A stretch of 64,000 nt of DNA from Phycisphaerales bacterium (GTDB taxonomy: Bacteria; Planctomycetota; Phycisphaerae; UBA1845), in the NCBI GenBank assembly GCA_020639115.1, contig JACKHG010000005.1, forward strand, positions 114,071 through 178,070, read 5' to 3'. The notes beneath the pieces were generated by a model. That model did no database searches. It was not told where the DNA came from and saw only the letters and a program-made list of their open reading frames with translations. Shown here one piece after another: positions 27,914 to 47,536 of the stretch. The translations under genes were made by a program, and so were the position numbers. How positions within the stretch are numbered: position 1 is the first letter of the stretch; each line of letters starts with the position of its first letter.

Positions 27914-27980
27914 GACGCCACCTCGCAATGAAGTTCAGAAATGCCCCCCCATCAGCCCCCGCCACAACCGCCCCCCCAAC

Positions 27981-28087: not shown

Positions 28088-28090
28088 CCC

Positions 28091-31597: not shown

Positions 31598-31660
31598 CTT
31601 GATACTCCCCCCCCCCGACAACCATGCCTGTGATCTCCCCAACCGTCGCCGGCACGCCCC

Positions 31661-31688
31661 ATTCATCATTCCGCATTCATCATTCATC
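31661..31688. repeat. heptamer array ATTCATC/ATTCCGC x4 (family R1)
   Basis: Direct reading. Overlaps the stop and last codons of the minus-strand gene 31680-32234. Confidence 0.8.
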
Positions 31689-34957: not shown

Positions 34958-36187
34958 ATGCGTATCGCCGCCTTCCAACGCCGCCGCTGGCCCGCCGCCG
35001 TCAAGGCGGCTGGCTACGACTGCGTCACCCTTCCCGCGCCCCCCAACAGCGCGTACTTCCAGGCGACGCTCGACGACCTCATCGCCCACGGCCGCTACGT
35101 CCGCGACCTGCTCGAAGCCGAGCCCGTCGACCTCATCGTCGACGCCCACGGCGACGGCATGCTCTTCGTCGACGACCCGCGCGAACGCGGCCGCGACGCC
35201 CTGCTGCACCACCACCTGGGCGTCCCGCTCTTCTCGCACTTCAGCGAGACCCTGCGCATCCTGTTTCGGCGCATCGAACCCGCGCTGCTCTTCGAGATGC
35301 TCCAGAGCCCCACCTGGCACAAGGGCCTCTTCGTCCGCGCCCACGTGGCCGAGATGGCGTTTTTTGGTATTCCCAACTGCTGCTACCTGCCCCTCGCCGC
35401 CGACGACGACCTCTACCCCACGCAACCGCCCGACGTCGACCACGCCGGGCCGCTCGTCTTCTTCGCCGGGCACCAGCAGTCCCGCTACTTCGCCCACGCC
35501 GACGGCGCCGACACGCGCCTGCAGCGCAGCGGAGCGCTCGCCCTCGCCGCCGTCGCGGACGCGTCCGCGGGCAGCTTCCTCGAGGCCTACCGCTGCTACG
35601 CCCTCGGACCCGAACCGGCGCCCGACGCGCCGCCCGCGGACCGCGCCGAGTGCGCCCGCCGCTACTACGCCCACAAGCTCTTCTACACCGCGGCCCGCAA
35701 CCTCGGCACCCGCGACCGCTTCGTCGTCCGCCTCGCCCGGCAGCTCGGCGACCGCTTCCTGCTGGTCGGCGACGAGCGCTGGCAATCCCAGTACGGGCTC
35801 GAGCCCACGCCGCGCCTCGCCGACGACGACTACTACCGCCGCCTGCGCACCACCCCGCTGTGCCTCAACGTCGTCAACGGCGACAACGACACCGGCCTCA
35901 ACCTCCGCCCCTTCGAAATCACCGCTTGGGGCGGACTGTTGCTCCACTACCACCAACCCGAACTGCCCGAACTCTTCGACATCGGCGAGGAGTGCGTCTC
36001 CTTCCGCAACGAGGCGGAACTGTTCGACCGCATCCGCCACCTCGCGGAAAACCCCCGCCAGCGCGACGAAATCGCCCGCGCCGGCCAGGAACGCACCCTC
36101 CGCGAACACCTGCTCCACCACCGCCTCGCCACCATCCTCGACCAGGTATTCCAGGAGACCCGCGTTGAAAGCTGCCAGCCAAGCTGA
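34958..36187 (+). CDS. CgeB-family glycosyltransferase-like protein (DUF3880 / Glyco_trans_1_2)
   Basis: C-terminal ...FEITAWGGLLLHYHQPELPELFDIGEECVSFRNEAELFDRIRHLAENPRQRDEIARAGQERTL, typical of CgeB-like proteins. Confidence 0.72.
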   Translation: MRIAAFQRRRWPAAVKAAGYDCVTLPAPPNSAYFQATLDDLIAHGRYVRDLLEAEPVDLIVDAHGDGMLFVDDPRERGRDALLHHHLGVPLFSHFSETLRILFRRIEPALLFEMLQSPTWHKGLFVRAHVAEMAFFGIPNCCYLPLAADDDLYPTQPPDVDHAGPLVFFAGHQQSRYFAHADGADTRLQRSGALALAAVADASAGSFLEAYRCYALGPEPAPDAPPADRAECARRYYAHKLFYTAARNLGTRDRFVVRLARQLGDRFLLVGDERWQSQYGLEPTPRLADDDYYRRLRTTPLCLNVVNGDNDTGLNLRPFEITAWGGLLLHYHQPELPELFDIGEECVSFRNEAELFDRIRHLAENPRQRDEIARAGQERTLREHLLHHRLATILDQVFQETRVESCQPS

Positions 36188-36836
36188 CCGCACCTTCGAC
36201 ACCACCAACAAGTGGGAGGACTGCAAACGCCTCTGCCGCGCGCCCCGCGTCGTCCTCGACTGCGGCGCCAACCGCGGCCAGGCCGCGCGCAACCTCCGCG
36301 AGGCCTACCCCCACGCGCGCCTCTTCTGCTTCGAACCCGTCTCTTCGGTGATTCCCCACCTCGAACCGGTCGCCCGCGAGCTGAACGCCGAGATCGTCGA
36401 GGCCGCGGTGAGCAACCGCACCGGAACCGCCGAGATCAACCTCACCGAGTCGCACGAGTCCAACTCGCTGCTCGGCTTCCTCGCGGACAACAACCCCCTG
36501 GAGAAATACCACCGCGTCCGCGGCACCGAACAGGTCCGCACCTGGCGGCTCGACGACTGGTGCGCCCAAGCCGGCGTAGCCCCGGCTGAGGTGGATGTGA
36601 TCAAGCTGGACGTGCAGGGCGCCGAGCTCATGGCCCTCGACGGCGCCACCCAGATCCTCGCCCACGTCCGCGTGGTGATGCTCGAGGTCGCCTTCGTCCC
36701 CTACTACGCCGCCTGCCCCCTCGACACCGACGTCCACGCGTACATGCGCGCCCGCGGCTTCACCCGCCGGCACCTCTACGCAGCCCCCATGCCCGAAATC
36801 TGGGCCGACGCCATCTACACCCCCTCCGCGTTCTGA
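36165..36836 (+). CDS. FkbM-family methyltransferase
   Basis: VVLDCGANRGQAARNL (SAM motif I) ...VIKLDVQGAELMALDGA. The start is provisional (TTG at 36165, overlapping the end of the previous gene). Confidence 0.78.
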   Translation: MKAASQADRTFDTTNKWEDCKRLCRAPRVVLDCGANRGQAARNLREAYPHARLFCFEPVSSVIPHLEPVARELNAEIVEAAVSNRTGTAEINLTESHESNSLLGFLADNNPLEKYHRVRGTEQVRTWRLDDWCAQAGVAPAEVDVIKLDVQGAELMALDGATQILAHVRVVMLEVAFVPYYAACPLDTDVHAYMRARGFTRRHLYAAPMPEIWADAIYTPSAF

Positions 36837-36940
36837 GCGAAATGCGGCGTGCCGCTGCTCATGTGGTGTGCCCCTGCTGATGCGGTGTGCCCCTGCTCTC
36901 GAGCAGTGCCCGACATCCGGTCCGCGCAGGGCGCCGCCAA

Positions 36941-36991
36941 GCCGGAGGGTATCTGCGTTTTGCCGAATCTCGGCATTTTCACGCGTAATCC
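36941..36991 (-). repeat. ~50-nt element X, copy 1 (inverted relative to copy 2)
   Basis: The reverse complement GGATTACGCGTGAAAATGCCGAGATTCGGCAAAACGCAGATACCCTCCGGC aligns by eye with 37393-37444 and 44473-44524. Confidence 0.55.
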
Positions 36992-37172
36992 CTTGTCCTC
37001 AAAGGACTTGGTATTCGCGCCGCGAGTGCGCTCGTGTGTGCGCTGGACCGACGGCTGCGGGGCTCACACAGAGCCGCTGCGCACGCCGAGACGGCAATCA
37101 TGGATTCGGAACAGAAGAAAACAGAGAGAACGGAGAACGGCGGGTTGGGGAGTGGCGAACAGCGGGCCGGGT

Positions 37173-37214
37173 GTCGCAGGTCGCAGGTCAAAGGTCGCAG
37201 GTCTCAGGTCGGGA
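37173..37214. repeat. heptamer array GTCGCAG-type x6
   Basis: gtcgcag gtcgcag gtcaaag gtcgcag gtctcag gtcggga. This is the inverse orientation of the array at 44742-44797. Confidence 0.8.
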
Positions 37215-37392
37215 GAACCCCGAATGAACGTCGGGAGAACCGCGAATGAACGCGAACAACGCGAAGAACGGCGTTTCTTGAATGACCTCTCTCCGTGAGC
37301 TCTGCGTCCCTGCGTGAGACCGGCTGCCCGCTGCCGGGCGACTGCGCAAACTGCGCATTCGCCGCGTGAGCCCTAACTGCAGTGCGGCAGAG

Positions 37393-37444
37393 GGTTTACA
37401 GTTGAAATTGCCGATTTCCTGGCAAAGTGACATATCCCCCGGGG
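37393..37444 (+). repeat. ~50-nt element X, copy 2
   Basis: GGTTTACAGTTGAAATTGCCGATTTCCTGGCAAAGTGACATATCCCCCGGGG. Confidence 0.55.
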
Positions 37445-37695
37445 GGGCGGAGTCTGGAGGCACTCAGTCCGGAGTCCGGAGGCGCGCGGCCCGCAGGTGG
37501 CCGTGGCCGGTCCGCGGGTGGCTCAGCCGGAGACGCGGAGCCGCTGAGGCAAGTTCTCCCAAGCGAGGCAGCCGTTCTCCGTTTCCTCAGTTAACTCCTG
37601 TTCTGCATTGATCGCCACAAAGCGCGATGAATCCTCCACCAGACCACACCCACTGGGCGCCATTTCCCCTCCGCCCCAGCGAACTCCTACCGATC

Positions 37696-37737
37696 CTATT
37701 TAATAACTAAGAGTATTAGTAGATATGTAGTGGTATA
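37696..37737. other. 42-nt AT-rich patch (~26% GC) in a ~70% GC context
   Basis: ctatttaataactaagagtattagtagatatgtagtggtata, counted by hand. Confidence 0.8.
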
Positions 37738-38448
37738 CCCGGGGTAGCTGCCTGACTGCTGACGCACCGCACGTAGCACCAGCCACCCCTGCGGTAAAGT
37801 GCCGCACGCGGGGAGCTGCCGTTTTGCAGTCGCCCAGCCCCCGTGCCCGTACCAGCCGGTACGGATCACGCCATGCCAGTAGCGCCCGGCCTCCTGGACG
37901 ACCGCGGCTGGGGAGGTAAGTACGCGTTTGCTGGAATCCTGCAATCCAGCGCGTAACCCTTGCCCGAGCCCACCTTGGCGTTCGCCGCCCGCAACGTGAA
38001 CTTCGCGCTCTCGGCGATCTGCCGTCAACCGACAGCTGGCGGCCAACCGCCGGCGGTAGGCTTTTACTTTAGAGCGTGCCAGGAACAGCGAGCCCTTATA
38101 GAACACCCTCACGCCGCCGGTGTGCCGGCTCTCCGCCTGCCTGCCCAAAAACGTTGCGCCGCAAGGCCCGGGGTTGCCGGGCAGCGGCTACCCTGGGTAA
38201 TCCCGTCCATTGCGAAACCCTACTCCAACGGAGTTGCCGCGCCGTGCCCGCAGACCGCCAGCCCGCGCCGCACCGAACCCTCATGATTGTTCGACCAGGT
38301 AATCGCCCGTCAGCAGCGAGCCCGCGGACGCGCCGTGTCGCGGCAGCGGCTGCCGAGCGGGGAGATCGAAGTGCTCATCGAGGGATACCGCTGACTCCGT
38401 CGTGCACACTTCGGCACCTGATAGCTAAAGAAAAGAAGGAGGCTGAAC

Positions 38449-38655
38449 ATGCCCAGAGGCAAGCACCTCAAGGTCATCATCGCCATCGACGGATCATGCA
38501 GCGTCGATGCGCTCAACTTCACCGGGTCCGCATGCCGCGTCGCCACGCTGGAGATCACCTCCATGCTGGGCGGCGATATCACCGAACAGCACGACAGGCC
38601 CGAGGCCCGGCTGCGTGAGCGGGCCAGCCAGGCTGAGCGAGAGGGGGCACGATGA
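38449..38655 (+). CDS. small protein (68 aa), DUF2997-like by pattern
   Basis: Strong AAGGAGG RBS 6 nt upstream. MPRGKHLKVIIAIDGSCSVDALNFTGSACRVATLEITSMLGG fits the I.I..DG....v.G..G..C...T..le..LG pattern as I recall it. Confidence 0.55.
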   Translation: MPRGKHLKVIIAIDGSCSVDALNFTGSACRVATLEITSMLGGDITEQHDRPEARLRERASQAEREGAR

Positions 38656-38975
38656 CCAGGATCAGGATCGCGTCCGACGGCACGGTGCGAGGGCTGTGGA
38701 CGGACGACGTGGTCTGGCGGGCGATCGGCCAGGTCGCAGTACGTCGGGCATCGCACGTGGAATTCTCCACGCGCCGTCAGCTTTGGTACGTCCGCGACGG
38801 CCGTGTGCGCAACGCGCTTACAGCGATCGTCCAGTTCGTGCTTCGGCGGCCGTGCGGTAAGATCCTGCATTGGGCCAGCAGCCGATCGGACGCATTGGCC
38901 TGGGAGGCGGCGCACTTCGGCGTCGGCGGTCCCGGCTGGGCCCATCGTTCGCGGCAGCGCAACGCAGTGAGCTGA
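38652..38975 (+). CDS. hypothetical protein (107 aa), mobile-element-type
   Basis: ATGA overlap with the previous gene. MTRIRIASDGTVRGLWTDD...RRASHVEF...WYV. Confidence 0.5.
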   Translation: MTRIRIASDGTVRGLWTDDVVWRAIGQVAVRRASHVEFSTRRQLWYVRDGRVRNALTAIVQFVLRRPCGKILHWASSRSDALAWEAAHFGVGGPGWAHRSRQRNAVS

Positions 38976-38980
38976 CCCGC

Positions 38981-39244
38981 TTGTTTCCCACGAGACTCAA
39001 TGAAGCGTCAGGAGTCGAAGAGACGCCGCTCACGTCGAAGCAACGACAAGCCCACCTCGCTGGAGGCGGCTGCAATTGTCCTTTTTGCGGATGTCCCCAG
39101 CTCGACGGCGGACCGGTCGACGTCAACGCAGGTACTGCGGGCCAGGACATCACCCGCCTCGGCTGCAGCCGCTCCTGGCGAGACTGCTACCGGTTGGTCG
39201 AGATAGTCCTCGAACGCGAGCACGCCGGACCAGGCACGAAGTAG
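38981..39244 (+). CDS. possible small zinc-ribbon protein (87 aa, TTG start)
   Basis: In-frame TTG 6 nt after the upstream stop. ..GGCNCPFCGCPQLDGGPVDVNAGTAGQDI..W.DCYRLVEI. There is no ATG, so this is weak. Confidence 0.3.
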   Translation: MFPTRLNEASGVEETPLTSKQRQAHLAGGGCNCPFCGCPQLDGGPVDVNAGTAGQDITRLGCSRSWRDCYRLVEIVLEREHAGPGTK

Positions 39245-39689
39245 ACACGCCCCGGGCCGCCGCACGTCGTGCCCACCCGTGGGGATCGGGTTCTGATACC
39301 TGGGCGCTTCGGCCACACCAGTTCATCCCCACCATGCCCACCCTGCAGGTCGCTGGGGCCTGCCCAAGGAGAAGCGATCAGCGGCGTTCCGCCGCCCGAC
39401 CGGCAGGCCGAATCAGATCCCATCCGCTGCCGGAGATTTCTCGGTGGATTGCTACGTCATTACTACCGCGTTGCCGCGTGAGGTTCTGTCGTCGGGGCGG
39501 CTCACCCCTCCGCACAGTTCTGCTCGCCGACTGGCGACGACTCTGCTATCATGCGCGCGGTCGCGGATGGTCGGCAAAATCAACCCTGCTGCGCCGCGCG
39601 ACCACGCCTTTACGCCGCTCTCCCAAAACTCCAGACTTTGGATGGCCGGGACGTCTACATTCTGGACCCGGTCTACGTGGACCTGCACG

Positions 39690-39762
39690 GGTAAAGATAC
39701 ATGGTGGTGCCATCGAGATCACCCGAATTCGTCACGACCTTCTTCACCCGCCGGCCCAGGCC
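39690..39762 (-). pseudogene. Rhs core fragment (..GLGRRV..VVTNSGDLDGTTMYLY), truncated next to the IS
   Basis: The DNA is nearly identical to 44166-44220 of Rhs gene 43056-44507. The reading frame ends in a stop right after YLY. Confidence 0.6.
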
Positions 39763-39798
39763 TCGTTGAAGGCGAGAGGGTGGTTTGCACGCCCCCCT

Positions 39799-40642
39799 GA
39801 CTAGAACCTATCCCTTTACTTGGTTTCCCATCATGAGCTGACTATCCTACTGCATGCTTAAACTCACGGACGAGCAGTTGGATTGGCTGACGGAACGGAT
39901 TCCGGATCATCAACCCAGCCCGAAGGGCGGACGACCGGCACTCGACAAGCGTCGGGCCATGCAGGGCATTTTCTGGATCCTGGACAACGGCGCCAAATGG
40001 AAGGACCTCCCCAAACGCTTCGGATCCAAGAGTGCCGTGCACCGCTGGTTCAAACGCTGGGTCGAGGACGGCGTATTTGAAAACATCATGCGTGACGCGG
40101 GTCGGCTGGTCGAGGAGCGCGACGGCTACCGGCTCTACGAGTGCTTCATCGACGCCACGTTCAGCAAGGCCAAGGGTGGTGGTGATGGCATCGGGTGCAC
40201 ACGCGCCGGAAAAGGCGTGAAAATCATGGTTCTCGTCGATGCCCGCGGCTTGCCGGTGGCGGTCGATACAGCTTCCGCGAGCCCGCATGAGTCGCAGCTG
40301 GTGCAGCGGCTCTTCGACTTCATGCTCACCAACGACGCGCCCGAGCGCATCGTCGGCGACAAGGCCTACGACAGCGATGGGCTCGATGCAGAACTCGACG
40401 CCGCGGGGATCGAACTGATCGCGCCGCATCGCCGCGATCGCAAGAAGAAGCACAAGACCCAGGACGGCCGCAGCCTGCGCCGGTACAAGCGCCGGTGGAC
40501 TGTGGAACGCACGATCGGCTGGATTCAGCACTTCCGTCGCCTGTGCATCCGCTGGGAGAAGTCGACTCTGATGTTCCAGGGTTTTCTGCATATTGGCTGC
40601 ACGCTACTATTACTCAAAGAGGTTTTGGGATAGCTTCTAGTC
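39799..40642 (+). mobile_element. IS5-family insertion sequence (844 bp)
   Basis: Terminal inverted repeats GACTAGAACCTATCCC (39799-39814) and GGGATAGCTTCTAGTC (40627-40642) match at 15 of 16 positions and enclose one transposase ORF. Confidence 0.85.
39854..40633 (+). CDS. IS5-family DDE transposase
   Basis: MLKLTDEQLDWLTERIP...GGRPALDKRRAMQGIFWILDNGAKWKDLP..FGS...VHRWFKRW...DATF...GDKAYDS...RWTVERTIGW, the classic IS5/IS427-group sequence. Confidence 0.92.
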   Translation: MLKLTDEQLDWLTERIPDHQPSPKGGRPALDKRRAMQGIFWILDNGAKWKDLPKRFGSKSAVHRWFKRWVEDGVFENIMRDAGRLVEERDGYRLYECFIDATFSKAKGGGDGIGCTRAGKGVKIMVLVDARGLPVAVDTASASPHESQLVQRLFDFMLTNDAPERIVGDKAYDSDGLDAELDAAGIELIAPHRRDRKKKHKTQDGRSLRRYKRRWTVERTIGWIQHFRRLCIRWEKSTLMFQGFLHIGCTLLLLKEVLG

Positions 40643-40682
40643 GGAAGCCAACCGAGGTCAAACTCGTCGAAATGTCCCGCAA

Positions 40683-41393
40683 CTAATGCTCGTGCATACT
40701 CTGGCGTAGGGCAAGGGTGGAAATACTCGAGACGACAATTGTAGTAGACACAACGAGGAAGAACCCCATCGCTAGGAGGCGTAGGTTCGGCGCGAGCAGT
40801 GGAATGCCCTGAGCAACGTGCCGGCCTATTACTGCAGTTGCAACGAGGCCCCCAAGCAACGCGCCAAACGCTGTTCGATTTCTCCGTGCTCGTAATCGCC
40901 AAAATGTAGTATGCGTTGGCATAGGCCGATACAAATCTCTGCCACACTCGGGACACACGCAGCTTTGGTTCCCCAGTAGACAATAGCCACACTGACAAGT
41001 GGGCTCATTAGGTCGCGACCGAGGCCAATATCCTGTGGCGATGAGGCAGAAACCTGATAGCAGAAACGGCCATAGGGGGTAAGAGTCGATCCATCCACGA
41101 CCCTGCTCTCCAAGCCTTGGCCACCAAACTGTGCTTTCCCCATCGACCCAGCCTGCCCAAATGTGCTTGCCATTCCAACCAAAAGAACCGTGGGCAATCA
41201 TCACTCCTCCAGGAACAAGTCCCACAACAACTCCATCAGGCACTTGGACATACCCGAAGGTAATGAAAAAACTGCTGGCGAACAGCAAGCAGAGAAAGAG
41301 AAAGGCGGTAATTCGTACGACGCCCTGCGCACGGGGTTCGACATGGGTCTCTTTCCGAACGAACGAGTTCATAGATGCAACCGATCGTAGCAA
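40683..41393 (-). CDS. membrane protein with internal zinc ribbon (CQCGYCLLGNQSCVCPECG); candidate immunity partner of the upstream Rhs-CT
   Basis: Lies 93 nt downstream of Rhs cassette 41487-42740. GC is about 50%. TM helices flank the motif. Confidence 0.6.
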   Translation of the reverse strand: MLRSVASMNSFVRKETHVEPRAQGVVRITAFLFLCLLFASSFFITFGYVQVPDGVVVGLVPGGVMIAHGSFGWNGKHIWAGWVDGESTVWWPRLGEQGRGWIDSYPLWPFLLSGFCLIATGYWPRSRPNEPTCQCGYCLLGNQSCVCPECGRDLYRPMPTHTTFWRLRARRNRTAFGALLGGLVATAVIGRHVAQGIPLLAPNLRLLAMGFFLVVSTTIVVSSISTLALRQSMHEH

Positions 41394-41486
41394 TATCGAT
41401 ATTTCCTCTTGTTTCTACAAATACACCGGTTCGTCGCCCGTGCGAGACTTATTGAGTTCGGCTGTACAGTTTGTATCCATCGCAGA

Positions 41487-42740
41487 TCAGACCCCTGGAG
41501 GAAAGCTTGGTGGCGTAGCTGGAGAGGTCTTGTTTGGCGTATTGTTATCGTTGAAGCAGCTCCATGCCCCTGGACAATTCCAGCTTGTAGGGGCTGAATC
41601 CCTCCACTCGGTGCTCTCTTCGCATCCGCAAACGGTCACGTTCTTTTGCTTGCATTTGCTGTTCCTGGCAACATGTTCGGCTTGCCCATTCGTGCCTCCT
41701 GGACCATCTCTCCCCGACTGACAACTCAGGAAATTGATCGTACCGCCGTCCTTCATCTTTCCACATAATGTGCCCGCTGGAATAGTGCTGGGAGGTCGTG
41801 AGTTCCCGCACCTTACGTACCCTCCGCCGCCAGTGCAACCGTGGGCCCCAATGTCAAGTCTGTCGGCCGAGTCATCCGTTATCTTATTTAGATAATCTTG
41901 GCACTTTGCGCACTTATCGAAAGGCCAAGATTGATCGTATCCAGAGACCTGTCCGAAACCAGGCGTAGAACCTTCATCATAGAATAGGATACTTGTGTGC
42001 CCAGACCAATCGGTTCGGGCAAGTGGACTGGCTGCGGTGGCGACATACAAGTTTTGACCGTCGGCGTATCCGCTACGGGCTACGTGAGATTCGATCAGTG
42101 GATCCCTCTGCATAAAACGCTTCGCCCGCGGCGAATACTGCCGCGCCCGGTTCTGATACGACCCGATTTCCGGATCGAGCACCAGCCCTTGGTGGGCAAA
42201 GAGGTTGCTGCGGCGGCTGTGGGTGGCGGCGGGGACGCGCTGCAGCTCGGTGTCGCTGTTGAGGGTGGCAATGTAGGCGGCGATGGCCGTCTGATCGGCG
42301 CTGTCCACCACGCCGTCGGCATTGGCGTCCAGCCGGCGGCAGTCGCCGCTTGCGGCGCCAGAGCACGTGCCATTTGTCGTCACAGCGTAGTCGTCGTCGT
42401 CCACGTCGCCGTCGTCGTCGTAATCGAACGGGTGGGCCGCCACGACCGCCTCCAGCTCGCCGTACGGGCTGTACCAGTAGCGCTCGATCACCCGGCCGGT
42501 GAGGTCGGTCAGCGCGGTGACGTTCCAGTTGGCGTCCTGGGACGCGTACAGCCGGCCGAGGTCCTTCACCCTCAGGCCGACGACCTCGTCGATGTAGCGC
42601 GTGCCATGGTACACCTGCACCTCCACGTTCCCCAAGCCGTCGAAAGTGCCATGACCCCACTGAGCATTCGGTTGGCCATTGTCAGAGCTCAGAACCATAC
42701 TGCGCCAGTGGTCAGGTTTCCCGATCGATCGGCGTTCCAC
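41487..42740 (-). CDS. orphan (5'-truncated) Rhs repeat-associated core plus variable Cys-rich C-terminal domain (CT1)
   Basis: YD repeats, then ..YWYSPYGE.., then the core end FAHQGLVLDPEIGSYQNRARQYSPRAKRFMQRDPL, then a low-GC unique tail. At 417 aa it is far shorter than full-length Rhs. Confidence 0.78.
   Translation of the reverse strand: MERRSIGKPDHWRSMVLSSDNGQPNAQWGHGTFDGLGNVEVQVYHGTRYIDEVVGLRVKDLGRLYASQDANWNVTALTDLTGRVIERYWYSPYGELEAVVAAHPFDYDDDGDVDDDDYAVTTNGTCSGAASGDCRRLDANADGVVDSADQTAIAAYIATLNSDTELQRVPAATHSRRSNLFAHQGLVLDPEIGSYQNRARQYSPRAKRFMQRDPLIESHVARSGYADGQNLYVATAASPLARTDWSGHTSILFYDEGSTPGFGQVSGYDQSWPFDKCAKCQDYLNKITDDSADRLDIGAHGCTGGGGYVRCGNSRPPSTIPAGTLCGKMKDGGTINFLSCQSGRDGPGGTNGQAEHVARNSKCKQKNVTVCGCEESTEWRDSAPTSWNCPGAWSCFNDNNTPNKTSPATPPSFPPGV
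42110..42633. repeat. 524-bp Rhs-core duplication, copy 1
   Basis: Collinear with 43613-44136 at equal length and roughly 90% identity by eye. Confidence 0.8.
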
Positions 42741-43047
42741 ATTCTGGACAGATCCCGCTCACATTCCCTACCAGACTGTATTGACAAGTTTGACAGTACT
42801 GGCCGCGCGAGCACAAGTTCTTCCATCGAAGCGCTACATATACTCTACGTGAAACAAGGTATGCGATCGGGACAGCGACGAGGGGGCTAACCACCGCAGC
42901 GATATCAAAACGAACCTCCAAGCTGCCAAGTACGACAAGTGGAATGCCGACAATCAGCCAACAGCTCACTGCGAATACGATAATGGAACATGCAGCTGAC
43001 ACATGTCTCGAGAGTCGGGATTGCTTGGCTGTATCGCGTGTCGACAT
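42712..43047 (-). CDS. small membrane protein with C-terminal zinc ribbon (CQTCQYSLVGNVSGICPECG); candidate immunity partner
   Basis: Starts 9 nt after the stop of Rhs gene 43056-44507. Two TM helices. Its 3' end overlaps the annotated start of the next Rhs cassette by 29 nt. Confidence 0.62.
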   Translation of the reverse strand: MSTRDTAKQSRLSRHVSAACSIIVFAVSCWLIVGIPLVVLGSLEVRFDIAAVVSPLVAVPIAYLVSRRVYVALRWKNLCSRGQYCQTCQYSLVGNVSGICPECGTPIDRET

Positions 43048-43055
43048 AATTCAGT

Positions 43056-44507
43056 CTATTCCATGCAGCACCTATTCATAACGTCCTCCGCAGCATTAAT
43101 GCAATTCCTCCAGGGACGCCAACTTTGGTGCTCGTCCCACCACGCCATCTCCCAGCCAACGCAAGTCGCAATCTCGTTGCAGCTCATACTGTTGCAGGGC
43201 TTACCTGCACCTTGATGTGGACTACTTGATCCAGTATTCCTGACCTTCAGCGTGCGACAAGTCGTAAGCGCATTGTGAGTACATGAAAACCACCCAACGG
43301 GAAAACTGTAGCACGTAACGCCGCCACCAGGCTCGTCGGCTTCAAGCCAAGTATGTCCGACGATGAGGGTCTCAATCGCGTCTGCCCACCTTCGACACTT
43401 CCTAATGCCGCATTCGCGCCGTTGATCCGGAAGCCCATCTCCATTGACATCATCGGCATCAGATTGCTGCTGGTCCGAATTGACCGACGTAACTGAATAC
43501 GTTCTGTCATACCCATTCGCAATCCACCCATCAGATCGGCCGCTTGCAGCGACGGTGGGCTGGCTCTCGAGAGTCTGTCCCGCCTTGGTTGCTAGGGCCC
43601 AAGTATGGCGTTGCATAAACCGCTTCGCCCCGGGCGCATACTGCCGCGCCCGGTTCTGATACGACCCGATCTCCGGATCGAGCACCAGGCCCTGGTGGGC
43701 GAAGAGGTTGCCGCGACGGCTGTGGGTGGCGGCTGGCACGCGTTGCAGCTCGGTGTCGCTGTCCAGCGTGGCGAGGTACGCGGCGACGGCCGTGCGGTCG
43801 GCACCGTCCAGCACGCCGTCGGCGTTGGCGTCCAGCCGGCGGCAGTCGCCGGTGGCTGAGCCGCTGCACGTACCGTTGGTGGTCACGGCGTAATCGTCGG
43901 CGTCCACGTCGCCGTCGTCGTCGTAATCGAACGGGTGGGCCGCCACGACGGCCTCCAGCTCGCCGTACGGGCTGTACCAGTAGCGCTCGATCACCCGGCC
44001 GGTGAGGTCGGTCAGCGCGGTGACGTTCCAGTTGGCGTCCTGGGACGCGTACAGCCGGCCGAGGTCCTTCACCCTCAGGCCGACGACCTCGTCGATGTAG
44101 CGTGTGCCGTGGTACACCTGCAGCTCCACGTTCCCCGAGCCGTCCCGCGTCTCGATGATCTGCTGCCCATGGTAAAGATACACGGTGGTGCCATCGAGAT
44201 CACCCGAATTCGTCACGACCTGAGCGCTCCCGCCTTGGTCGCGTTCAGTCACCCGCCGGCCCAGGCCGCCGAGAGCGACTATCTGGATGACCACCTCCTT
44301 CACGCTCCCGCCTTGGTCGGGTTCAGCATTCAGTGTGGCTTTTGACCCACCCCAGACACTCCGTCCTCCTTTGCCTCCTTGTTCAAGCCATGCCGTTGCC
44401 GCCTCAGCGTACTCTGCGTGACGCGGACAACAGGTGCATTCCGGATGCGAGGCGCAAGCCCGGCGCCGGCAACGATTTACGGTGAGAAATGCCGGATTGG
44501 TGGCCAA
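43056..44507 (-). CDS. orphan (5'-truncated) Rhs repeat-associated core plus different Cys-rich C-terminal domain (CT2)
   Basis: Same core as 41487-42740 up to ..AKRFMQR, then a divergent tail (HTWALATKAG...NRCCME). The N-terminal ~60 aa are of doubtful coding quality. Confidence 0.75.
   Translation of the reverse strand: MATNPAFLTVNRCRRRACASHPECTCCPRHAEYAEAATAWLEQGGKGGRSVWGGSKATLNAEPDQGGSVKEVVIQIVALGGLGRRVTERDQGGSAQVVTNSGDLDGTTVYLYHGQQIIETRDGSGNVELQVYHGTRYIDEVVGLRVKDLGRLYASQDANWNVTALTDLTGRVIERYWYSPYGELEAVVAAHPFDYDDDGDVDADDYAVTTNGTCSGSATGDCRRLDANADGVLDGADRTAVAAYLATLDSDTELQRVPAATHSRRGNLFAHQGLVLDPEIGSYQNRARQYAPGAKRFMQRHTWALATKAGQTLESQPTVAASGRSDGWIANGYDRTYSVTSVNSDQQQSDADDVNGDGLPDQRRECGIRKCRRWADAIETLIVGHTWLEADEPGGGVTCYSFPVGWFSCTHNALTTCRTLKVRNTGSSSPHQGAGKPCNSMSCNEIATCVGWEMAWWDEHQSWRPWRNCINAAEDVMNRCCME
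43613..44136. repeat. 524-bp Rhs-core duplication, copy 2
   Basis: See 42110-42633. Confidence 0.8.
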
Positions 44508-44524
44508 GTGTGATATCCCCGGGG
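44473..44524 (+). repeat. ~50-nt element X, copy 3
   Basis: CGATTTACGGTGAGAAATGCCGGATTGGTGGCCAAGTGTGATATCCCCGGGG, about three-quarters identical to copy 2 by eye. Confidence 0.55.
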
Positions 44525-44525
44525 A

Positions 44526-44567
44526 AGCTATCAGCTGTCAGCGGTCAGCTTTCAGCCTTCAGCCAAC
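44526..44567. repeat. heptamer array AGCNNTC x6
   Basis: agctatc agctgtc agcggtc agctttc agccttc agccaac. Confidence 0.8.
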
Positions 44568-44741
44568 GACCGCCAGCCGCTGCGCGGCTGGGGCCCCCAC
44601 TGGCGTGGGGGTTCGGACGTGCAGCCGGAGGTGGGCAGGCTGGAGTCCGGAGGCACGGCGGGCACTGCGTGGCCCGGCCCCCCGTTGGCGTGGGGGGTTC
44701 TGAAGGACCCGGCACGGCAGGCAATAGCGGGCCCGACGGCG

Positions 44742-44797
44742 TGCGACCTTATGCCTGCGACCTTGGACCTTCGACCTGCGACCTGCGACCGTCGACC
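44742..44797. repeat. heptamer array TGCGACC-type x8 (reverse complement of the 37173 array type)
   Basis: tgcgacc ttatgcc tgcgacc ttggacc ttcgacc tgcgacc tgcgacc gtcgacc. Confidence 0.8.
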
Positions 44798-44846
44798 GGC
44801 TATCAAGAACCGCCGTTCTCCGCGTTATCTGCGTCTCTGCGGTTGT

Positions 44847-45977
44847 TCACAACAGGCTGCGCAAGGTTCTTACCACCCGGTCGACGTCCTGCTCGGTGAG
44901 GAAGGCGTGGAACGGGAGGGCGATCGTGCGGTTCGCGACCGTCTCGCAGATGGGGAAATCTCCAGCGCGGCAGCCCAGGTCCGCCTGGTAGAACGGCTGG
45001 AGGTGGATGGGCGAGAAGTAGTTGTTGCACCCGATCCCCGCGGCGCGGAGGCCCGCCATGATCTCGTCCCGCGCTCCCACCGGGTAGTCGTCCGCCAGCT
45101 TCACCACGTACACGAACCAACTCTTCGTGCTCCCCGGCGGCGTCGCCTGCTGCGTGAGCCGCGGCTCATCCTTCAGCCGCGCGTCGTACAGCGCCGCCAC
45201 GCGCGCCCGGGCGGCCAGGATTTCCGGCAGCCGCGCGACCTGCACCACGCCGATGGCGCAGTTGATGTCGGCGAGGCGGAAGTTGTAGCCGAGGCGCTCG
45301 TGCGCGAGCCAGCCAGCCGTCGCCGCGCGGCCCTGGTTGCGAATCGACCGGCAGAGCGCGGCGATCTCCGCGTCGTCGGTGACGACCATGCCGCCCTCGC
45401 CCGTCGTGATCTGCTTGTTGGGATAGAAGCCGAACACCCCCGCGTCCCCGAGCGAGCCTGCCACGGCGCCGCCCCGAGTGGCGCCGGCTGCCTCGCAGGA
45501 ATCCTCGATCACGCGCAGGTTGTGCCGGCGGGCGATGGCGCGGATGGCGTCCATATCGGGGATGATGCCGAACACGTCGACGGTGAGAATCGCCTTGGTG
45601 GCGGGCGTGATCGCCGCCTCGATCCGCGCCGGGTCCAGGCACCAGTACTGCGGATCCATGTCCACGAAAACCGGCTTGGCCCGCTCGAACAGGATGCAGT
45701 TCGCCGAGGCCACGAAGGAAAACGGCGTCGTGATCACCTCGTCGCCCGGGCCGAGCCCCATCGCCCGCACGACCATGTGCAGGGCGCTCGTGCCGCTGTT
45801 GCAGGCCACGGCGTGCTCGGTCCCGCACAGCCGGGCGAAGTCCTCCTCGAACTCGGGCACCTTGGGGCCCAGCGAGAGGTTGGGGCTGCGCAGCACCGCC
45901 ACGACAGCCTCGATTTCCTGGTCGGTGATATCCGGACGGGCGAGGGCGATTTCGCCGGGACGGGTCGAATGGCTCAT
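44847..45977 (-). CDS. DegT/DnrJ/EryC1/StrS-family PLP-dependent sugar aminotransferase
   Basis: ..GDEVITTPFSFVASANCI.. and the PLP-Lys region FGFYPNKQITTGEGGMVVTDD. Start MSHSTRPGEIALARPDI (ATG at 45977). Confidence 0.9.
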   Translation of the reverse strand: MSHSTRPGEIALARPDITDQEIEAVVAVLRSPNLSLGPKVPEFEEDFARLCGTEHAVACNSGTSALHMVVRAMGLGPGDEVITTPFSFVASANCILFERAKPVFVDMDPQYWCLDPARIEAAITPATKAILTVDVFGIIPDMDAIRAIARRHNLRVIEDSCEAAGATRGGAVAGSLGDAGVFGFYPNKQITTGEGGMVVTDDAEIAALCRSIRNQGRAATAGWLAHERLGYNFRLADINCAIGVVQVARLPEILAARARVAALYDARLKDEPRLTQQATPPGSTKSWFVYVVKLADDYPVGARDEIMAGLRAAGIGCNNYFSPIHLQPFYQADLGCRAGDFPICETVANRTIALPFHAFLTEQDVDRVVRTLRSLL

Positions 45978-46216
45978 GCGGCGGCTCACGGAGGGGTGCG
46001 GTTCAGCCGGGTCCGGCACCTGCCGATACCAGCGCTGGCAGGCGCATCTGCGCTGCGACCGATAAGGCGCACCCCGAGCGCCCTGGCGGTCGCGAAGCGG
46101 CGATGATAGGGATACGACCGGCGCGTGGCAACGGTTCGTCTTGCACGGGCCACCGCCGCTCCTATCATGGCCCGACCGTTTCGAGGAAAAAGACACCGCA
46201 CCGGGAGATCCCACAC

Positions 46217-47536
46217 GTGCTACATCGCCAGCAGATCGAGCGCATCAACGACCGTTCCTTCGTCGTCGGTATTATCGGGATGGGTTACGTCGGCCTGCCG
46301 CTGACCCGCTCGTTCTACGACGCCGGCTTCAAGTGCGTCGGCTTCGACGTGGACGAACGCAAGATCAAGATGCTCAACGCCGGCAAGAGCTACATCAAGC
46401 ACATCACCTCGGAGTTCATCGCCAAGGCGCGCAAGGAGGGCCGCTTCCGCGCGACCTCCGATTTCGCCGAGCTGAAGAAGGTGGACGCGATCATCATCTG
46501 CGTGCCCACGCCGCTCACCAAGATGCGCGAGCCGGACATGTCGTACGTGCAGAAGACGTGCGAGGTGGCTGCGAAGTACCTGCGCAAGGGGCACCTCGTT
46601 GCGCTGGAGAGCACGACCTATCCCGGCACGACGCGCGAGCTCATGCTCCCGCTGCTCGCCGCCGGCGGGCTCAAGGTGGAGCGCGACTTCTTTCTTGCGT
46701 TTTCCCCGGAGCGCGAGGACCCCGGCCGCAAGACGCACACGACCACGACGATTCCCAAGGTGGTCGGCGGTTACGGTCCGAAGAGCCTCGCCGTGGCCAA
46801 GGCGCTCTACGGCGCCGCGCTCGAGACCGTGGTGCCCGTCTCGAGCTGCGAGGTGGCGGAGGCCGCGAAGATCCTCGAAAACGTCTACCGCTGCGTGAAC
46901 ATCGCGCTGGTCAACGAGATGAAGGTGCTCTTCGACCGCATGAACATCAACGTCTGGGAGGTGATCCAGGCGGCGGCCACCAAGCCGTTCGGCTTCCAGG
47001 CCTTCTACCCCGGCCCGGGGCTCGGCGGCCACTGCATCCCCATCGATCCGTTCTACCTCACCTGGAAGGCCCGCGAGTACGGCATGAACACGCGGTTCAT
47101 CGAGCTGGCCGGCGAGATCAACACGGACATGCCCGAGTACGTGGTGCACAAGACCGCGGAGGCCCTCAACACCCACAAGAAGCCGCTGAACGGCTCGAAG
47201 GTGCTCGTGCTCGGACTCGCCTACAAGAAGGACGTGGACGACCTGCGCGAGTCGCCCTCCATCGAGATCATCGAGTTGTTGCGCGAGCGTGGCGCGAAGG
47301 TCGCCTACAACGACCCCTTCTTCAAGCAGACCCACAAGCAGCGTGAGCACGACCTGCGGATGAAGAGCACCCCGCTCACGCCCGCGTCGGTCAAGGGCTT
47401 TGACTGCGTCTTGATTGCAACCGATCACTCCTCGTACGATTATCAGTGGATCGTGGATCACGCCCAGCTCGTGGTCGACACCCGCAACGCGACGGCGGGC
47501 TGCAAGCGCGTCGCGCGCAAGGTGGTCAAGGCGTAG
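46217..47536 (+). CDS. UDP-N-acetyl-hexosamine (nucleotide-sugar) dehydrogenase (WecC/TviB/WbpA-like)
   Basis: Rossmann motif GIIGMGYVGLP and catalytic Cys region GPGLGGHCIPIDP. GTG at 46217. Confidence 0.9.
   Translation: MLHRQQIERINDRSFVVGIIGMGYVGLPLTRSFYDAGFKCVGFDVDERKIKMLNAGKSYIKHITSEFIAKARKEGRFRATSDFAELKKVDAIIICVPTPLTKMREPDMSYVQKTCEVAAKYLRKGHLVALESTTYPGTTRELMLPLLAAGGLKVERDFFLAFSPEREDPGRKTHTTTTIPKVVGGYGPKSLAVAKALYGAALETVVPVSSCEVAEAAKILENVYRCVNIALVNEMKVLFDRMNINVWEVIQAAATKPFGFQAFYPGPGLGGHCIPIDPFYLTWKAREYGMNTRFIELAGEINTDMPEYVVHKTAEALNTHKKPLNGSKVLVLGLAYKKDVDDLRESPSIEIIELLRERGAKVAYNDPFFKQTHKQREHDLRMKSTPLTPASVKGFDCVLIATDHSSYDYQWIVDHAQLVVDTRNATAGCKRVARKVVKA

What the first reader, a model, noticed from the sequence alone, without database searches (positions are those of the whole stretch)
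39690..44507. Array of orphan Rhs C-terminal toxin cassettes, each followed by a TM+zinc-ribbon gene, with a third cassette remnant next to an IS5
Two 5'-truncated Rhs genes (417 and 483 aa) share a 524-bp core at about 90% identity (42110-42633 and 43613-44136). They diverge exactly after the core end ..AKRFMQR(DPL) into unrelated Cys-rich, low-GC tails. Each is followed by a small low-GC membrane protein carrying CxxCxYxLxGx5CPECG (42712-43047 and 40683-41393). That is the layout of displaced or orphan Rhs toxin-immunity modules used for recombinational toxin switching. A third core fragment (39690-39762) abuts the IS5 element. No full-length Rhs gene and no VgrG, PAAR or T6SS gene is in the window. 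I do not recognise the candidate immunity proteins (polytopic, with a zinc ribbon) as a described immunity family.
Basis: partly seen in the sequence, partly recalled or inferred. Interest (0 to 1): 0.55.

Follow-up and report, generated by a model that had tools for sequence, protein, structure and literature searches.

The report
Orphan Rhs toxin cassettes with zinc-ribbon membrane partners
A Phycisphaerae (Planctomycetota) genome carries two truncated spare copies of an Rhs toxin gene. Each is followed by a small membrane protein with a cytoplasmic zinc ribbon that is probably its antidote, but the same zinc-ribbon tail sits on hundreds of unrelated membrane proteins in this lineage and has never been described.

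Summary
Two minus-strand ORFs (41487-42740 and 43056-44507) share a 533-bp Rhs core at 91% identity, then diverge into unrelated Cys-rich, low-GC tails. Each is followed by a polytopic membrane protein with a C4 zinc ribbon. A third stub of about 75 bp lies beyond an intact IS5.

Both ORFs correspond only to the last ~220 residues of 2,400-2,500-aa Rhs proteins found in related Phycisphaerae. Those proteins carry Sec signal peptides. No full-length Rhs is in the window, and none of the ten largest ORFs is a T6SS gene. The layout is a classical orphan Rhs array.

The new part is the partner gene. In related Phycisphaerae loci, 13 of 21 Rhs C-terminal (CT) ORFs are directly followed by a membrane protein carrying CxxCGYxLxGx5CPECG (P about 5e-16). 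This supports a toxin-immunity pairing.

The zinc ribbon is not specific to immunity, however. More than 600 metagenomic copies exist. Most lie among housekeeping genes or in tandem arrays with no toxin. The N-terminal parts are unrelated, and the motif is even fused to an MFS transporter and an RDD protein.

No Pfam, NCBIfam, PADLOC or literature match was found. Toxin folds remain unknown. I rate this a new variant of a known kind, of moderate interest.

The parts
43056..44507 (-). Orphan Rhs cassette 'CT2' (483-aa ORF). Residues 1-67 have no Rhs homology. Residues ~68-302 (about 43602-44306) match the last part of the Rhs shell and core, including a dockerin-like Ca-binding insert. Residues 303-483 (43056-43601) form a unique tail with 11 Cys that lacks the DPxG core end.
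   Evidence: TIGR03696 at 24 bits, profile positions 13-50 only. tblastn of full-length Rhs L002/L003/L005 aligns their residues ~2053-2323 to 44306-43593. The tail has no homologue by word search or in PDB sequences. The AF2 model is unusable, pLDDT 37.5.
42712..43047 (-). Candidate immunity gene 'imm111' (111 aa). Both termini are predicted cytoplasmic, with 2 TM helices, a periplasmic loop of about 7 residues and a C-terminal C4 zinc ribbon (CQTCQYSLVGNVSGICPECG, nt 42736-42795). It starts 9 nt after the CT2 stop codon.
   Evidence: ORF and translation. Only sub-threshold DZR/zinc-ribbon Pfam hits. No NCBIfam or PADLOC family. Two weak homologues through the motif only. Position relative to CT2. 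The JGI gene caller did not call this ORF on the identical contig.
41487..42740 (-). Orphan Rhs cassette 'CT1' (417-aa ORF; the JGI gene call starts at 42635). Shared core 42109-42641. Remaining core end DPL...TDWSG at 42002-42104. Unique tail with 11 Cys at 41487-41999.
   Evidence: TIGR03696 at 43 bits, above the cut-off of 32.5, to profile end 76/76. tblastn of full-length Rhs. An exhaustive HMMER search of 1.84 billion representatives finds one real relative, P0004 (164 aa, 31% identity), sharing D-x-[LV]-D-I-x-x-H-G, C-Q-[AS]-G and VCGC. AF2 pLDDT is 39 and foldseek gives no hit below E = 0.001.
40683..41393 (-). Candidate immunity gene 'imm236' (236 aa from TTG; 229 aa in the JGI call, 40683-41372). 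About 4 TM helices, a Trp-rich predicted periplasmic loop of about 60 residues, and a zinc ribbon (CQCGYCLLGNQSCVCPECG, nt 40941-40997) in the cytoplasmic loop between TM2 and TM3.
   Evidence: No Pfam, NCBIfam or PADLOC family. tblastn similarity to other loci is limited to the zinc ribbon. The gene is called on JGI contig L154.
42109..42641 (-). Copy 1 of the 533-bp shared Rhs core repeat.
   Evidence: blastn: 91.4% identity over 533 bp, no gaps, to 43612-44144. Also repeat finder D1.
43612..44144 (-). Copy 2 of the 533-bp shared Rhs core repeat. This is the homology available for recombination.
39799..40642 (+). Intact IS5-family insertion sequence (transposase 39854-40633, 259 aa; 16-bp terminal inverted repeats). 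It separates imm236 from the third Rhs stub.
   Evidence: NF033580 at 206 bits; DUF4096 plus DDE_Tnp_1. Inverted repeats 39799-39814 and 40627-40642.
39690..39775 (-). Stub of a third Rhs cassette. It encodes ..GLGRRVKKVVTNSGDLDGTTMYLY, then diverges and stops after 5 codons. It corresponds to the segment upstream of the shared core, not to the core itself.
   Evidence: 98% identity of 39690-39740 to 44171-44221. Translation. tblastn of full-length Rhs residues ~2063-2135 to 39762-39691.

Best explanation
What it is. This is a decaying array of displaced ('orphan') toxin/immunity modules of a Sec-exported Rhs/YD-repeat polymorphic toxin, in a Phycisphaerae (Planctomycetota) bacterium. It lies between polysaccharide-biosynthesis genes.

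Shown by the sequence. Each module keeps only the last part of the Rhs shell: the TIGR03696 core, here with a dockerin-like Ca-binding insert. That is followed by a unique, short, Cys-rich C-terminal domain and, 9-95 nt later, a small low-GC polytopic inner-membrane protein. That protein's zinc ribbon is predicted to face the cytoplasm.

Inferred by analogy with enterobacterial Rhs and CDI orphans:
- The membrane proteins are the cognate immunity proteins.
- They can be kept and expressed for protection even where the toxin fragment is silent.
- The 533-bp core could allow homologous recombination with a full-length Rhs gene elsewhere in the genome, swapping its toxin tip.

Inferred from composition and topology:
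- All tails in this Rhs clade have 5-11% Cys, and the full-length relatives carry signal peptides. The toxins are therefore probably disulfide-stabilised and act on the cell envelope or membrane from the periplasmic side.
- This would explain why the partners are membrane proteins. Specificity would reside in their variable TM helices and loops.

The zinc ribbon. It is selected at protein level, but it is not the specificity element. It is a lineage-wide cytoplasmic tail shared with hundreds of unrelated membrane proteins, and it presumably binds a common cytoplasmic partner or fixes topology or assembly.

State of the array. It is partly degenerate. CT2 has lost the DPxG processing motif, the third cassette is a stub of about 75 bp, and an IS5 has inserted.
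For: Rhs core identity and truncation.

Other Phycisphaerae show the same architecture. L003 has a full-length Rhs followed by an orphan. L001, L006 and L013 have tandem orphans. Truncation points vary, as expected for remnants.

The full-length relatives have N-terminal signal-peptide-like sequences.

All 20 CT tails from this Rhs clade are mutually unrelated beyond the core end and contain 4-11% Cys. Two of them hit extracellular-type or unknown domains, AMOP and DUF6973.

Tight synteny. A membrane gene with the zinc-ribbon motif starts within -190 to +560 nt of the stop codon of 13 of 21 Rhs-CT ORFs in Rhs-anchored loci, P about 5e-16. The same holds in metagenome loci L101 and L138. In L091 a signal peptide, a vestigial core end and a Cys-rich tail are followed 3 nt later by a zinc-ribbon gene.

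Low GC and GC3 of the tails and partner genes.

Topology. A positively charged linker of about 18 residues (net charge +3.2) lies between the last TM helix and the motif.

Protein-level selection on the motif. Third codon positions are free, and Ser13 uses both AGY and TCN codons.

Tandem toxin-less arrays of hypervariable paralogues resemble the 'polyimmunity loci' described for polymorphic toxin systems (Zhang et al. 2012, PMC3482391). Two-TM immunity proteins have a precedent in Imm-CdiI and Imm17.
Against: No functional evidence exists. Neither toxicity nor protection was tested, and both CT domains lack any recognisable toxin fold.

Most zinc-ribbon membrane genes are not next to any toxin. 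The motif also occurs on an MFS transporter and an RDD protein. It therefore cannot by itself be taken as an immunity signature.

The three full-length Rhs genes examined are followed by other kinds of small genes: an N-terminally anchored protein, a lipoprotein and a WG-repeat protein. That is 0 of 3 against 13 of 18 for truncated copies, Fisher P = 0.04.

imm111 exposes only about 7 residues to the periplasm, so it could not bind a globular periplasmic toxin conventionally. A standard gene caller did not call it.

No pair of related toxins was found, so co-variation of toxin and partner could not be tested.

The master gene is not in the window.
Confidence: 0.6

Rival explanations
1. The zinc-ribbon membrane proteins are not immunity proteins. 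They belong to a large, lineage-specific set of membrane proteins that share a cytoplasmic zinc-ribbon tail with a general cellular role, such as sorting, turnover, or anchoring to a common partner. Rhs-CT cassettes simply tend to land, or be retained, next to such fast-evolving low-GC genes. The true immunity function, if any, lies elsewhere or is absent.
For: More than 600 metagenomic copies were found. Only about 3 of 97 evaluable genes have a toxin-like upstream ORF. Neighbours are housekeeping genes: a T2SSE ATPase, IlvD, ThiE, a Ser/Thr kinase, GH20 and a fucosidase. The motif is fused to a complete MFS_2 transporter and to an RDD protein. Two further copies in the window are not next to Rhs, at 10331-10699 and 33884-34849. 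Full-length Rhs genes are followed by non-zinc-ribbon genes.
Against: The positional association with Rhs-CT stop codons is far beyond chance, at 13 of 21 with P about 5e-16. Intergenic distances are as short as 3-18 nt. There is no other candidate ORF between or after the CT genes in the window. Toxin-less arrays of hypervariable paralogues are also what orphan immunity genes look like.
Confidence: 0.25
2. The whole array is non-functional debris. It consists of pseudogenised fragments left by past recombination and IS activity. Neither CT is ever joined to a shell or expressed, and the small ORFs persist only by chance.
For: CT2 has lost the DPxG end of the core and scores below the TIGR03696 cut-off. 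The third cassette is a stub of about 75 bp. An IS5 sits inside the array. No promoter-like sites above the shuffled expectation were found. imm111 was not called by the JGI gene caller. The L006 partner gene is frameshifted in its zinc ribbon.
Against: Both CT ORFs (417 and 483 aa) and both partner ORFs are uninterrupted, despite lying in a low-GC context where stop codons accumulate quickly. Both zinc-ribbon motifs are intact at every residue that is conserved across the family. The same cassette layout recurs intact in many genomes. A metagenome contig 99.98% identical to this region shows the locus is stable in a natural population.
Confidence: 0.12

Closest known systems
Orphan Rhs-CT/RhsI modules downstream of rhs genes in Enterobacteriaceae (E. 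coli, Salmonella, Dickeya), and the analogous orphan cdiA-CT/cdiI arrays. Recalled from established knowledge of these systems; also reviewed in Zhang et al. 2012, PMC3482391.
   Same: Fragments are 5'-truncated and keep only the end of the Rhs core. Tails are unrelated and of lower GC. Each tail is followed immediately by a small gene. The modules are arranged in tandem, an IS element lies in the array, and the shared core homology is long enough for recombination.
   Different: No T6SS, PAAR or VgrG context was found. Full-length relatives carry Sec-type signal peptides. The core has a dockerin-like Ca-binding insert of about 80 residues. Tails are short and Cys-rich rather than nucleases, deaminases or ADP-ribosyltransferases. 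Partner genes are membrane proteins with a zinc ribbon rather than small cytosolic proteins. The master gene is not in the window.
Two-TM immunity proteins Imm-CdiI (CdiI of E. coli EC93) and Imm17 (Zhang et al. 2012, PMC3482391)
   Same: These are small inner-membrane proteins encoded directly after a polymorphic toxin tip. They are proposed to act at the membrane rather than by cytosolic binding. imm111 likewise has 2 TM helices.
   Different: No sequence relationship was detected; no Pfam hit to any Imm family. The known families have no zinc ribbon. The proteins here have 1-9 TM helices and unrelated N-terminal parts.
Generic C4 zinc ribbons (Pfam DZR PF12773, DZR_2, Zn_Ribbon_1; archaeal DUF1610 micro-protein, PDB 6ydh)
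   Same: CxxC...CxxC spacing and a small size. Weak sub-threshold profile matches: DZR at 18.9 bits against a cut-off of 27.3, and 6ydh at E = 0.04.
   Different: No match reaches a curated threshold. The signature here is much more specific (C-x2-C-G-Y-x-L-x-G-x4-5-C-P-E-C-G) and is always placed about 18 residues after a TM helix. No named family or paper with this motif was found.
Homogeneous or heterogeneous 'polyimmunity loci' of polymorphic toxin systems (Zhang et al. 2012, PMC3482391)
   Same: Tandem arrays of 3-7 paralogous small genes without an adjacent toxin, highly divergent from each other, and with lower GC3 than their neighbours.
   Different: The array members share only the 20-residue zinc-ribbon tail, not a common immunity fold. 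The same tail occurs on a transporter.

Membership tests
Rhs/YD-repeat polymorphic toxin, orphan C-terminal module | RHS repeat-associated core domain (TIGR03696) immediately before the variable tip | tested here: met
   CT1 scores 43 bits against a cut-off of 32.5 and matches to profile end 76/76. CT2 matches partially (24 bits, profile positions 13-50), but it is 91% identical in DNA to CT1 over 533 bp.
Rhs/YD-repeat polymorphic toxin, orphan C-terminal module | Conserved DPxG(L) demarcation and autoprocessing motif at the end of the core | tested here: inconclusive
   CT1 has a variant (..ARTDWSGH) aligned with DPxG(L/R/K) of its relatives. CT2 lacks DP after RFMQR and has only a degenerate counterpart (..GRSDGWIA).
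Rhs/YD-repeat polymorphic toxin, orphan C-terminal module | 5' truncation: no YD-repeat shell and no N-terminal trafficking domain | tested here: met
   Full-length relatives of 2,421-2,518 aa align only by their residues ~2053-2356. No RHS_repeat Pfam hit. The first 67 codons of CT2 are non-homologous.
Rhs/YD-repeat polymorphic toxin, orphan C-terminal module | Variable C-terminal domain that is a toxin | not testable with these tools
   The tails are unique and match no known toxin domain or fold. Toxicity needs an experiment.
Rhs/YD-repeat polymorphic toxin, orphan C-terminal module | A full-length master rhs gene in the same genome sharing the core | not testable with these tools
   None is in the 64-kb window. 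The source genome is not among the GTDB representatives (best hit 75% identity). Only a 4.7-kb identical metagenome contig was found.
T6SS-delivered Rhs effectors | PAAR, VgrG or T6SS genes linked, or an N-terminal PAAR domain | tested here: not met
   No such domain in the ten largest window ORFs or the flanking genes. Full-length relatives start with signal-peptide-like sequences.
Cognate immunity protein of a polymorphic toxin | Encoded immediately downstream of the toxin tip on the same strand | tested here: met
   imm111 starts 9 nt after the CT2 stop. imm236 starts 95-115 nt after the CT1 stop. The same position holds in 13 of 21 related Rhs-CTs.
Cognate immunity protein of a polymorphic toxin | Co-variation with the toxin domain (the same toxin type pairs with the same immunity type) | tested here: inconclusive
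   No two CT tails in the 21 compared are related beyond the core end, so there are no informative pairs.
Cognate immunity protein of a polymorphic toxin | Specific neutralisation of the toxin | not testable with these tools
   Requires co-expression or binding assays.
Described immunity families (Imm1-Imm70s, Imm-CdiI, Imm17, SUKH, SuFu) | Significant match to the family profile | tested here: not met
   Pfam and NCBIfam scans of both partner proteins give no Imm-family hit, even at E <= 1.
Pfam double zinc ribbon (DZR, PF12773) | Score at or above the gathering threshold | tested here: not met
   18.9 bits against 27.3 for imm111. No hit for imm236.

The most novel reading that the evidence does not exclude
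The 20-residue motif C-x2-C-G-Y-x-L-x-G-x4-5-C-P-E-C-G is an undescribed cytoplasmic zinc-ribbon 'tail' module, enriched in Phycisphaerae. It couples many otherwise unrelated inner-membrane proteins to one common cytoplasmic partner. The proteins carrying it include small hypervariable proteins encoded after Rhs toxin tips, tandem arrays of such proteins, an MFS transporter and an RDD protein. If so, the Rhs-linked members would be a new modular class of immunity protein, with a variable membrane part for toxin recognition and a constant zinc ribbon for a shared downstream function such as assembly, localisation or turnover. The arrays would then be a large membrane-level defence repertoire against disulfide-rich secreted toxins.
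Probability: 0.25. Interest if true: 0.7.

Novelty: new variant of a known kind. Interest (0 to 1): 0.5.

Why it matters
Orphan Rhs cassettes are textbook in Enterobacteriaceae, but Rhs biology outside T6SS-bearing Proteobacteria is barely explored.

This locus and its relatives point to a Sec-dependent Rhs lineage in Phycisphaerae. Its tips are short, Cys-rich domains of unknown activity. Its usual partner gene is a membrane protein with a conserved cytoplasmic zinc ribbon. That combination is not in Pfam, NCBIfam, PADLOC or the searchable literature.

If the partners are immunity proteins, they would add a third, much larger and architecturally different class of membrane immunity proteins to Imm-CdiI and Imm17. 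They would also imply envelope-acting Rhs toxins.

Independently of toxins, the zinc-ribbon tail is an abundant, strongly conserved and completely uncharacterised feature of membrane proteins in a poorly studied phylum. It gives a concrete handle for experiments, such as cysteine mutants and partner pull-downs.

Tried and rejected
1. Identifying the toxins. Pfam and NCBIfam found nothing in the tails. PDB sequence searches gave nothing below E = 0.7. Word-indexed homology searches gave zero hits for both tails. An exhaustive HMMER search for the CT1 tail gave one real 164-aa relative and one spurious repeat protein. Single-sequence AlphaFold models had pLDDT 37.5 and 39.1, too poor to use. Foldseek on the CT1 model gave no match below E = 0.35.

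My visual impressions were that CT1 has a caspase/DUF4347-like H-G...C-Q-x-G pattern and that CT2 has a PPPDE/LRAT-like H...NC pattern. Neither could be confirmed, and neither is claimed.

2. Zinc-ribbon motif as a DNA recombination site marking cassette ends. Rejected: third codon positions vary freely, and Ser13 uses both AGY and TCN codons.

3. Frameshift explaining the missing DPL segment in CT2. Rejected: the other frames contain stop codons and no core-like sequence.

4. Remnant of a zinc-ribbon gene upstream of CT2. None found.

5. Fixed functional start for the 'orphans'. Rejected: truncation points differ among loci.

6. Phage origin or an anti-phage defence role. No PADLOC hit, and no relative in 2.9 million viral contigs.

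7. ncRNA or tRNA integration site in the island. None found.

8. Promoter and terminator scan. Not above shuffled expectation.

9. Literature. Searches for CPECG, CGYDL-type strings, zinc ribbon plus immunity plus Rhs, and Phycisphaerae plus Rhs returned nothing relevant.

10. The first metagenome scan, using the 16-sequence alignment, failed because no conserved stretch was long enough. It was repeated with 7 closer sequences.

Full report
**Context**

The window is 67% GC. Its closest relatives in a scan of one genome per species are all Phycisphaerae (Planctomycetota) MAGs, with at most 75% protein identity over the Rhs core.

The finding lies in a low-GC, low-GC3 island of about 8 kb, roughly 36850-44850. 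The island interrupts a polysaccharide-biosynthesis cluster. On one side are a glycosyltransferase (34958-36187) and an FkbM methyltransferase (36201-36836). On the other are a DegT aminotransferase (44847-46214, minus strand) and a UDP-glucose dehydrogenase (46103-47536).

No tRNA or Rfam RNA lies in the island.

A JGI metagenome contig (Ga0116240_10034584, sample 3300010349) is 99.98% identical to window 39303-43988. The locus therefore exists as such in a natural population.

**Checking the observation**

The layout, read along the minus strand, is as follows:
- CT2, 44507-43056 (483 aa).
- imm111, 43047-42712 (111 aa).
- CT1, 42740-41487 (417 aa).
- imm236, 41393-40683 (236 aa).
- An intact IS5, 39799-40642, with 16-bp inverted repeats and a 259-aa transposase scoring 206 bits on NF033580.
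- A short Rhs stub, about 39775-39690.

CT1 and CT2 share one ungapped 533-bp repeat at 91.4% identity, 42109-42641 versus 43612-44144. They are unalignable afterwards.

TIGR03696, the RHS repeat-associated core, is found in both. CT1 scores 43 bits, above the cut-off, and matches to the end of the profile. CT2 scores 24 bits and stops at position 50 of 76.

A weak dockerin match marks an insert of about 80 residues with two DxDxDG-type loops inside the core.

Three full-length Rhs proteins from relatives were compared with the window: L002 (2,518 aa), L003 (2,421 aa) and L005 (2,480 aa). They align only through their residues ~2053-2356, at three places: CT2, CT1 and the stub. The window therefore has no shell and no master gene.

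None of the ten largest ORFs is a T6SS component.

- The stub matches the segment upstream of the shared core (98% identity to 44171-44221), not the core. It stops 5 codons after the homology ends.
- RFMQR is where DNA identity ends, but it is not the end of the core domain. CT1 continues with DPL...GYADGQNLY...ARTDWSG, which aligns with the DPxG(L) end of its relatives. CT2 has only a degenerate remnant of that segment.
- The first 67 codons of the CT2 ORF are not Rhs-derived.
- imm236 has CxC, not CxxC, as its first cysteine pair.

**What the Rhs part is**

Related Phycisphaerae loci show the classical picture:
- A full-length gene followed by an orphan (L003).
- Tandem orphans (L001, L006 and L013).
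- Truncated genes of 290-640 aa.

The 5' truncation points differ from locus to locus, as expected for recombination remnants rather than for a fixed independent gene.

The full-length proteins begin with signal-peptide-like sequences followed by Cys-rich regions, not with PAAR. Delivery is therefore probably Sec-dependent and not through T6SS. This is an inference.

I compared 21 C-terminal tails from this clade, including L101 and L138. All are unrelated to each other beyond the first ~40 residues, which are the core end. Excluding L138, they are short and contain 4-11% cysteine. Only two hit any Pfam family: DUF6973 in L002 and AMOP in L005.

The two tails in the window are essentially unique:
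- Word-based searches gave no hits.
- PDB sequence searches gave nothing.
- An exhaustive HMMER search of 1.84 billion representatives found a single 164-aa relative of the CT1 tail. It shares D-x-[LV]-D-I-x-x-H-G, C-Q-[AS]-G and VCGC.
- Single-sequence structure models were unusable.

The toxin activities are unknown. The Cys-richness, together with Sec export, suggests disulfide-stabilised proteins that act in the envelope. This is an inference.

**The partner genes**

imm111 has positively charged termini, two TM helices joined by about 7 residues, and a C-terminal zinc ribbon.

imm236 has about four TM helices, a Trp-rich loop of about 60 residues between TM1 and TM2, and its zinc ribbon in the loop between TM2 and TM3. 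In both proteins the ribbon sits on the positive (cytoplasmic) side.

Neither protein matches any Pfam, NCBIfam or PADLOC family above threshold.

*Test 1, anchored on Rhs.* The loci were retrieved only through the Rhs core. In the Phycisphaerae set (window plus L001-L017, 268 kb), 13 of 21 evaluable Rhs-CT ORFs have a membrane protein with C-x(1,2)-C-x-Y-x-L...C-P-E-C-G starting within -190 to +560 nt of their stop codon. Two more have it one ORF further on.

Under a null in which all 19 such genes are scattered at random, P is about 5e-16.

No such motif occurs in 769 kb from 56 loci of other taxa, mostly other Planctomycetota. The link is real and lineage-specific.

None of the three full-length genes has such a neighbour. 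They are followed instead by an N-terminally anchored protein, a lipoprotein and a WG-repeat protein. The Fisher test gives P = 0.04. The numbers are small and the pattern is unexplained.

In the 80 loci kept, only L101 and L138 contain an Rhs core. There the layout is again zinc-ribbon gene, Rhs-CT, zinc-ribbon gene.

In L091 a zinc-ribbon gene starts 3 nt after an ORF made of a signal peptide, a vestigial core end (GRWITRDPL...RDAFGL) and a tail with 11.5% Cys.

Of 97 zinc-ribbon genes with enough upstream sequence:
- 28 are preceded by another zinc-ribbon gene.
- 33 are preceded by some other ORF.
- 33 have no same-strand ORF upstream.
- 3 are preceded by a Cys-rich tail.

Arrays of 3-7 paralogues occur with no room for toxins, for example L153, L082, L078 and L144. 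Neighbours of solitary genes and arrays are housekeeping genes.

Two more copies lie elsewhere in the window. One is a 2-TM gene at 10331-10699, in a second low-GC islet. The other is a polytopic protein with an N-terminal ribbon at 33884-34849.

Across 131 C-terminal-type proteins:
- The median length is 178 aa.
- There are mostly 1-4 TM helices.
- About 18 residues with net charge +3.2 separate the last TM helix from the motif.
- About 11 residues follow the motif.
- The N-terminal parts are detectably similar in only 1.7% of pairs.

Motif positions 10-18 are biased by the search pattern. However, C1, C4, Y6, L8 and the final C-G lie outside the pattern and are invariant or nearly so. The Rhs-anchored set shows the wider consensus, with GN-x-SG-x and GL-x-x-PR variants.

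Codon analysis shows protein-level selection. Third positions are free, and Ser13 uses both AGY and TCN codons.

The same tail is fused to a complete MFS_2 transporter (L120 and L122, 209 bits) and to an RDD-family protein (L117).

No copies were found in viral contigs.

No paper containing the motif strings, or describing zinc-ribbon immunity proteins, was found. Zhang et al. 2012 list only two membrane immunity families, Imm-CdiI and Imm17, both with two TM helices and no zinc ribbon.

**Interpretation**

The Rhs reading is secure. This is an orphan array, partly decayed: CT2 lacks the DPxG end, a third cassette is reduced to about 75 bp, and an IS5 has inserted.

I think the partner genes are most likely the cognate immunity proteins, with a probability of about 0.6. 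The reasons are:
- They hold the immunity position with very short spacers, in many genomes.
- They have the same atypical composition as the toxin tips.
- Their variable parts evolve quickly.
- Toxin-less arrays resemble polyimmunity loci.
- Membrane immunity fits envelope-acting, disulfide-rich toxins.

The zinc ribbon cannot be the specificity determinant, and it is not an immunity hallmark. It is a promiscuous cytoplasmic tail of membrane proteins in this lineage, and its role is unknown.

The main rival, at about 0.25, is that these are generic membrane proteins and the synteny reflects co-localisation in variable islets. A smaller possibility, about 0.12, is that the array is inert debris.

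Recombinational toxin switching is plausible given 533 bp of 91% identity. It is untestable here because the master gene lies outside the window.

**Verdict**

I rate it a new variant of a known kind: Sec-type Rhs with a dockerin-like insert, Cys-rich tips and zinc-ribbon-tailed membrane partners. Interest is moderate, at 0.5.

Noticed in passing
L120:4603-6159 (same as L122:1716-3272); L117:208-1188: The zinc-ribbon tail CxxCGYNLTGNVSGICPECG is fused to the C-terminus of a complete MFS_2 sugar transporter (209 bits) and of an RDD-family membrane protein. The motif is therefore a promiscuous tail of membrane proteins rather than the mark of one protein family.
   Followed up: partly
window 9400-11000: A second low-GC islet holds a solitary 2-TM zinc-ribbon gene (10331-10699, CWNCGYCLKGNTSGVCPECG). 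A lipoprotein-like ORF with no Pfam hit (9592-10047) lies upstream, and two 42-bp tandem repeats (10886-10969) lie downstream. No Rhs fragment is nearby.
   Followed up: partly
window 33884-34849 (+): A polytopic membrane protein of 321 aa has the same type of zinc ribbon near its N-terminus (CPACDYRLYGLREPRCPECG). Similar proteins with an N-terminal ribbon follow Rhs-CTs in L012 and L017, and sit next to C-terminal-type genes in L088 and L118.
   Followed up: no
window 42250-42500 and 43750-44000; L001-L016: An insert of about 80 residues with two DxDxDG-type Ca-binding loops (weak dockerin match) lies inside the TIGR03696 Rhs core. It was seen only in the Phycisphaerae clade. Other Planctomycetota Rhs cores align only up to the insert. 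A separate window protein (16362-17888) has a bona fide C-terminal dockerin at 28 bits.
   Followed up: partly
L002, L003, L005 versus the truncated copies in L001-L017: The three full-length Rhs genes are followed by candidates without a zinc ribbon: an N-terminally anchored protein, a lipoprotein and a WG-repeat protein. By contrast, 13 of 18 truncated copies are followed by a zinc-ribbon membrane gene (Fisher P = 0.04). The reason is unexplained.
   Followed up: partly
L091:465-1274 and the next gene at 1277: An ORF combines a signal peptide, a vestigial Rhs core end (GRWITRDPL...RDAFGL) and a tail with 11.5% Cys. A zinc-ribbon membrane gene starts 3 nt later. This looks like a shell-less secreted version of the same toxin/partner pair.
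   Followed up: partly
window 39303-43988 = L154 (JGI Ga0116240_10034584): A metagenome contig is 99.98% identical to this stretch. Its high-coordinate end falls inside the Rhs core repeat. Its gene caller called imm236 (229 aa) and CT1 (382 aa, start at 42635) but did not call imm111.
   Followed up: yes
window 36850-39690: The rest of the island has about 1.6 kb (36850-38450) with no convincing ORF or Rfam hit. It also holds small plus-strand ORFs, including a DUF2997 gene (38449-38655) and a CPFCG-containing ORF (38870-39244). Imperfect inverted simple repeats (GCAGGTC-type) at 37161-37208 and 44754-44801 bracket the island.
   Followed up: no
window 31150-31596 (+); 123-169 (-): Bacterial RNase P class A RNA (270 bits) and an Acido-Lenti-1 sRNA match (44.5 bits against a gathering score of 37).
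   Followed up: no
window 27973-28107; 14656-14733, 21322-21399, 31625-31702: An array of 8-nt CTCAATCC-type repeats, and a 78-nt intergenic repeat family ending in CATTCATCATTC motifs, present in three copies.
   Followed up: no
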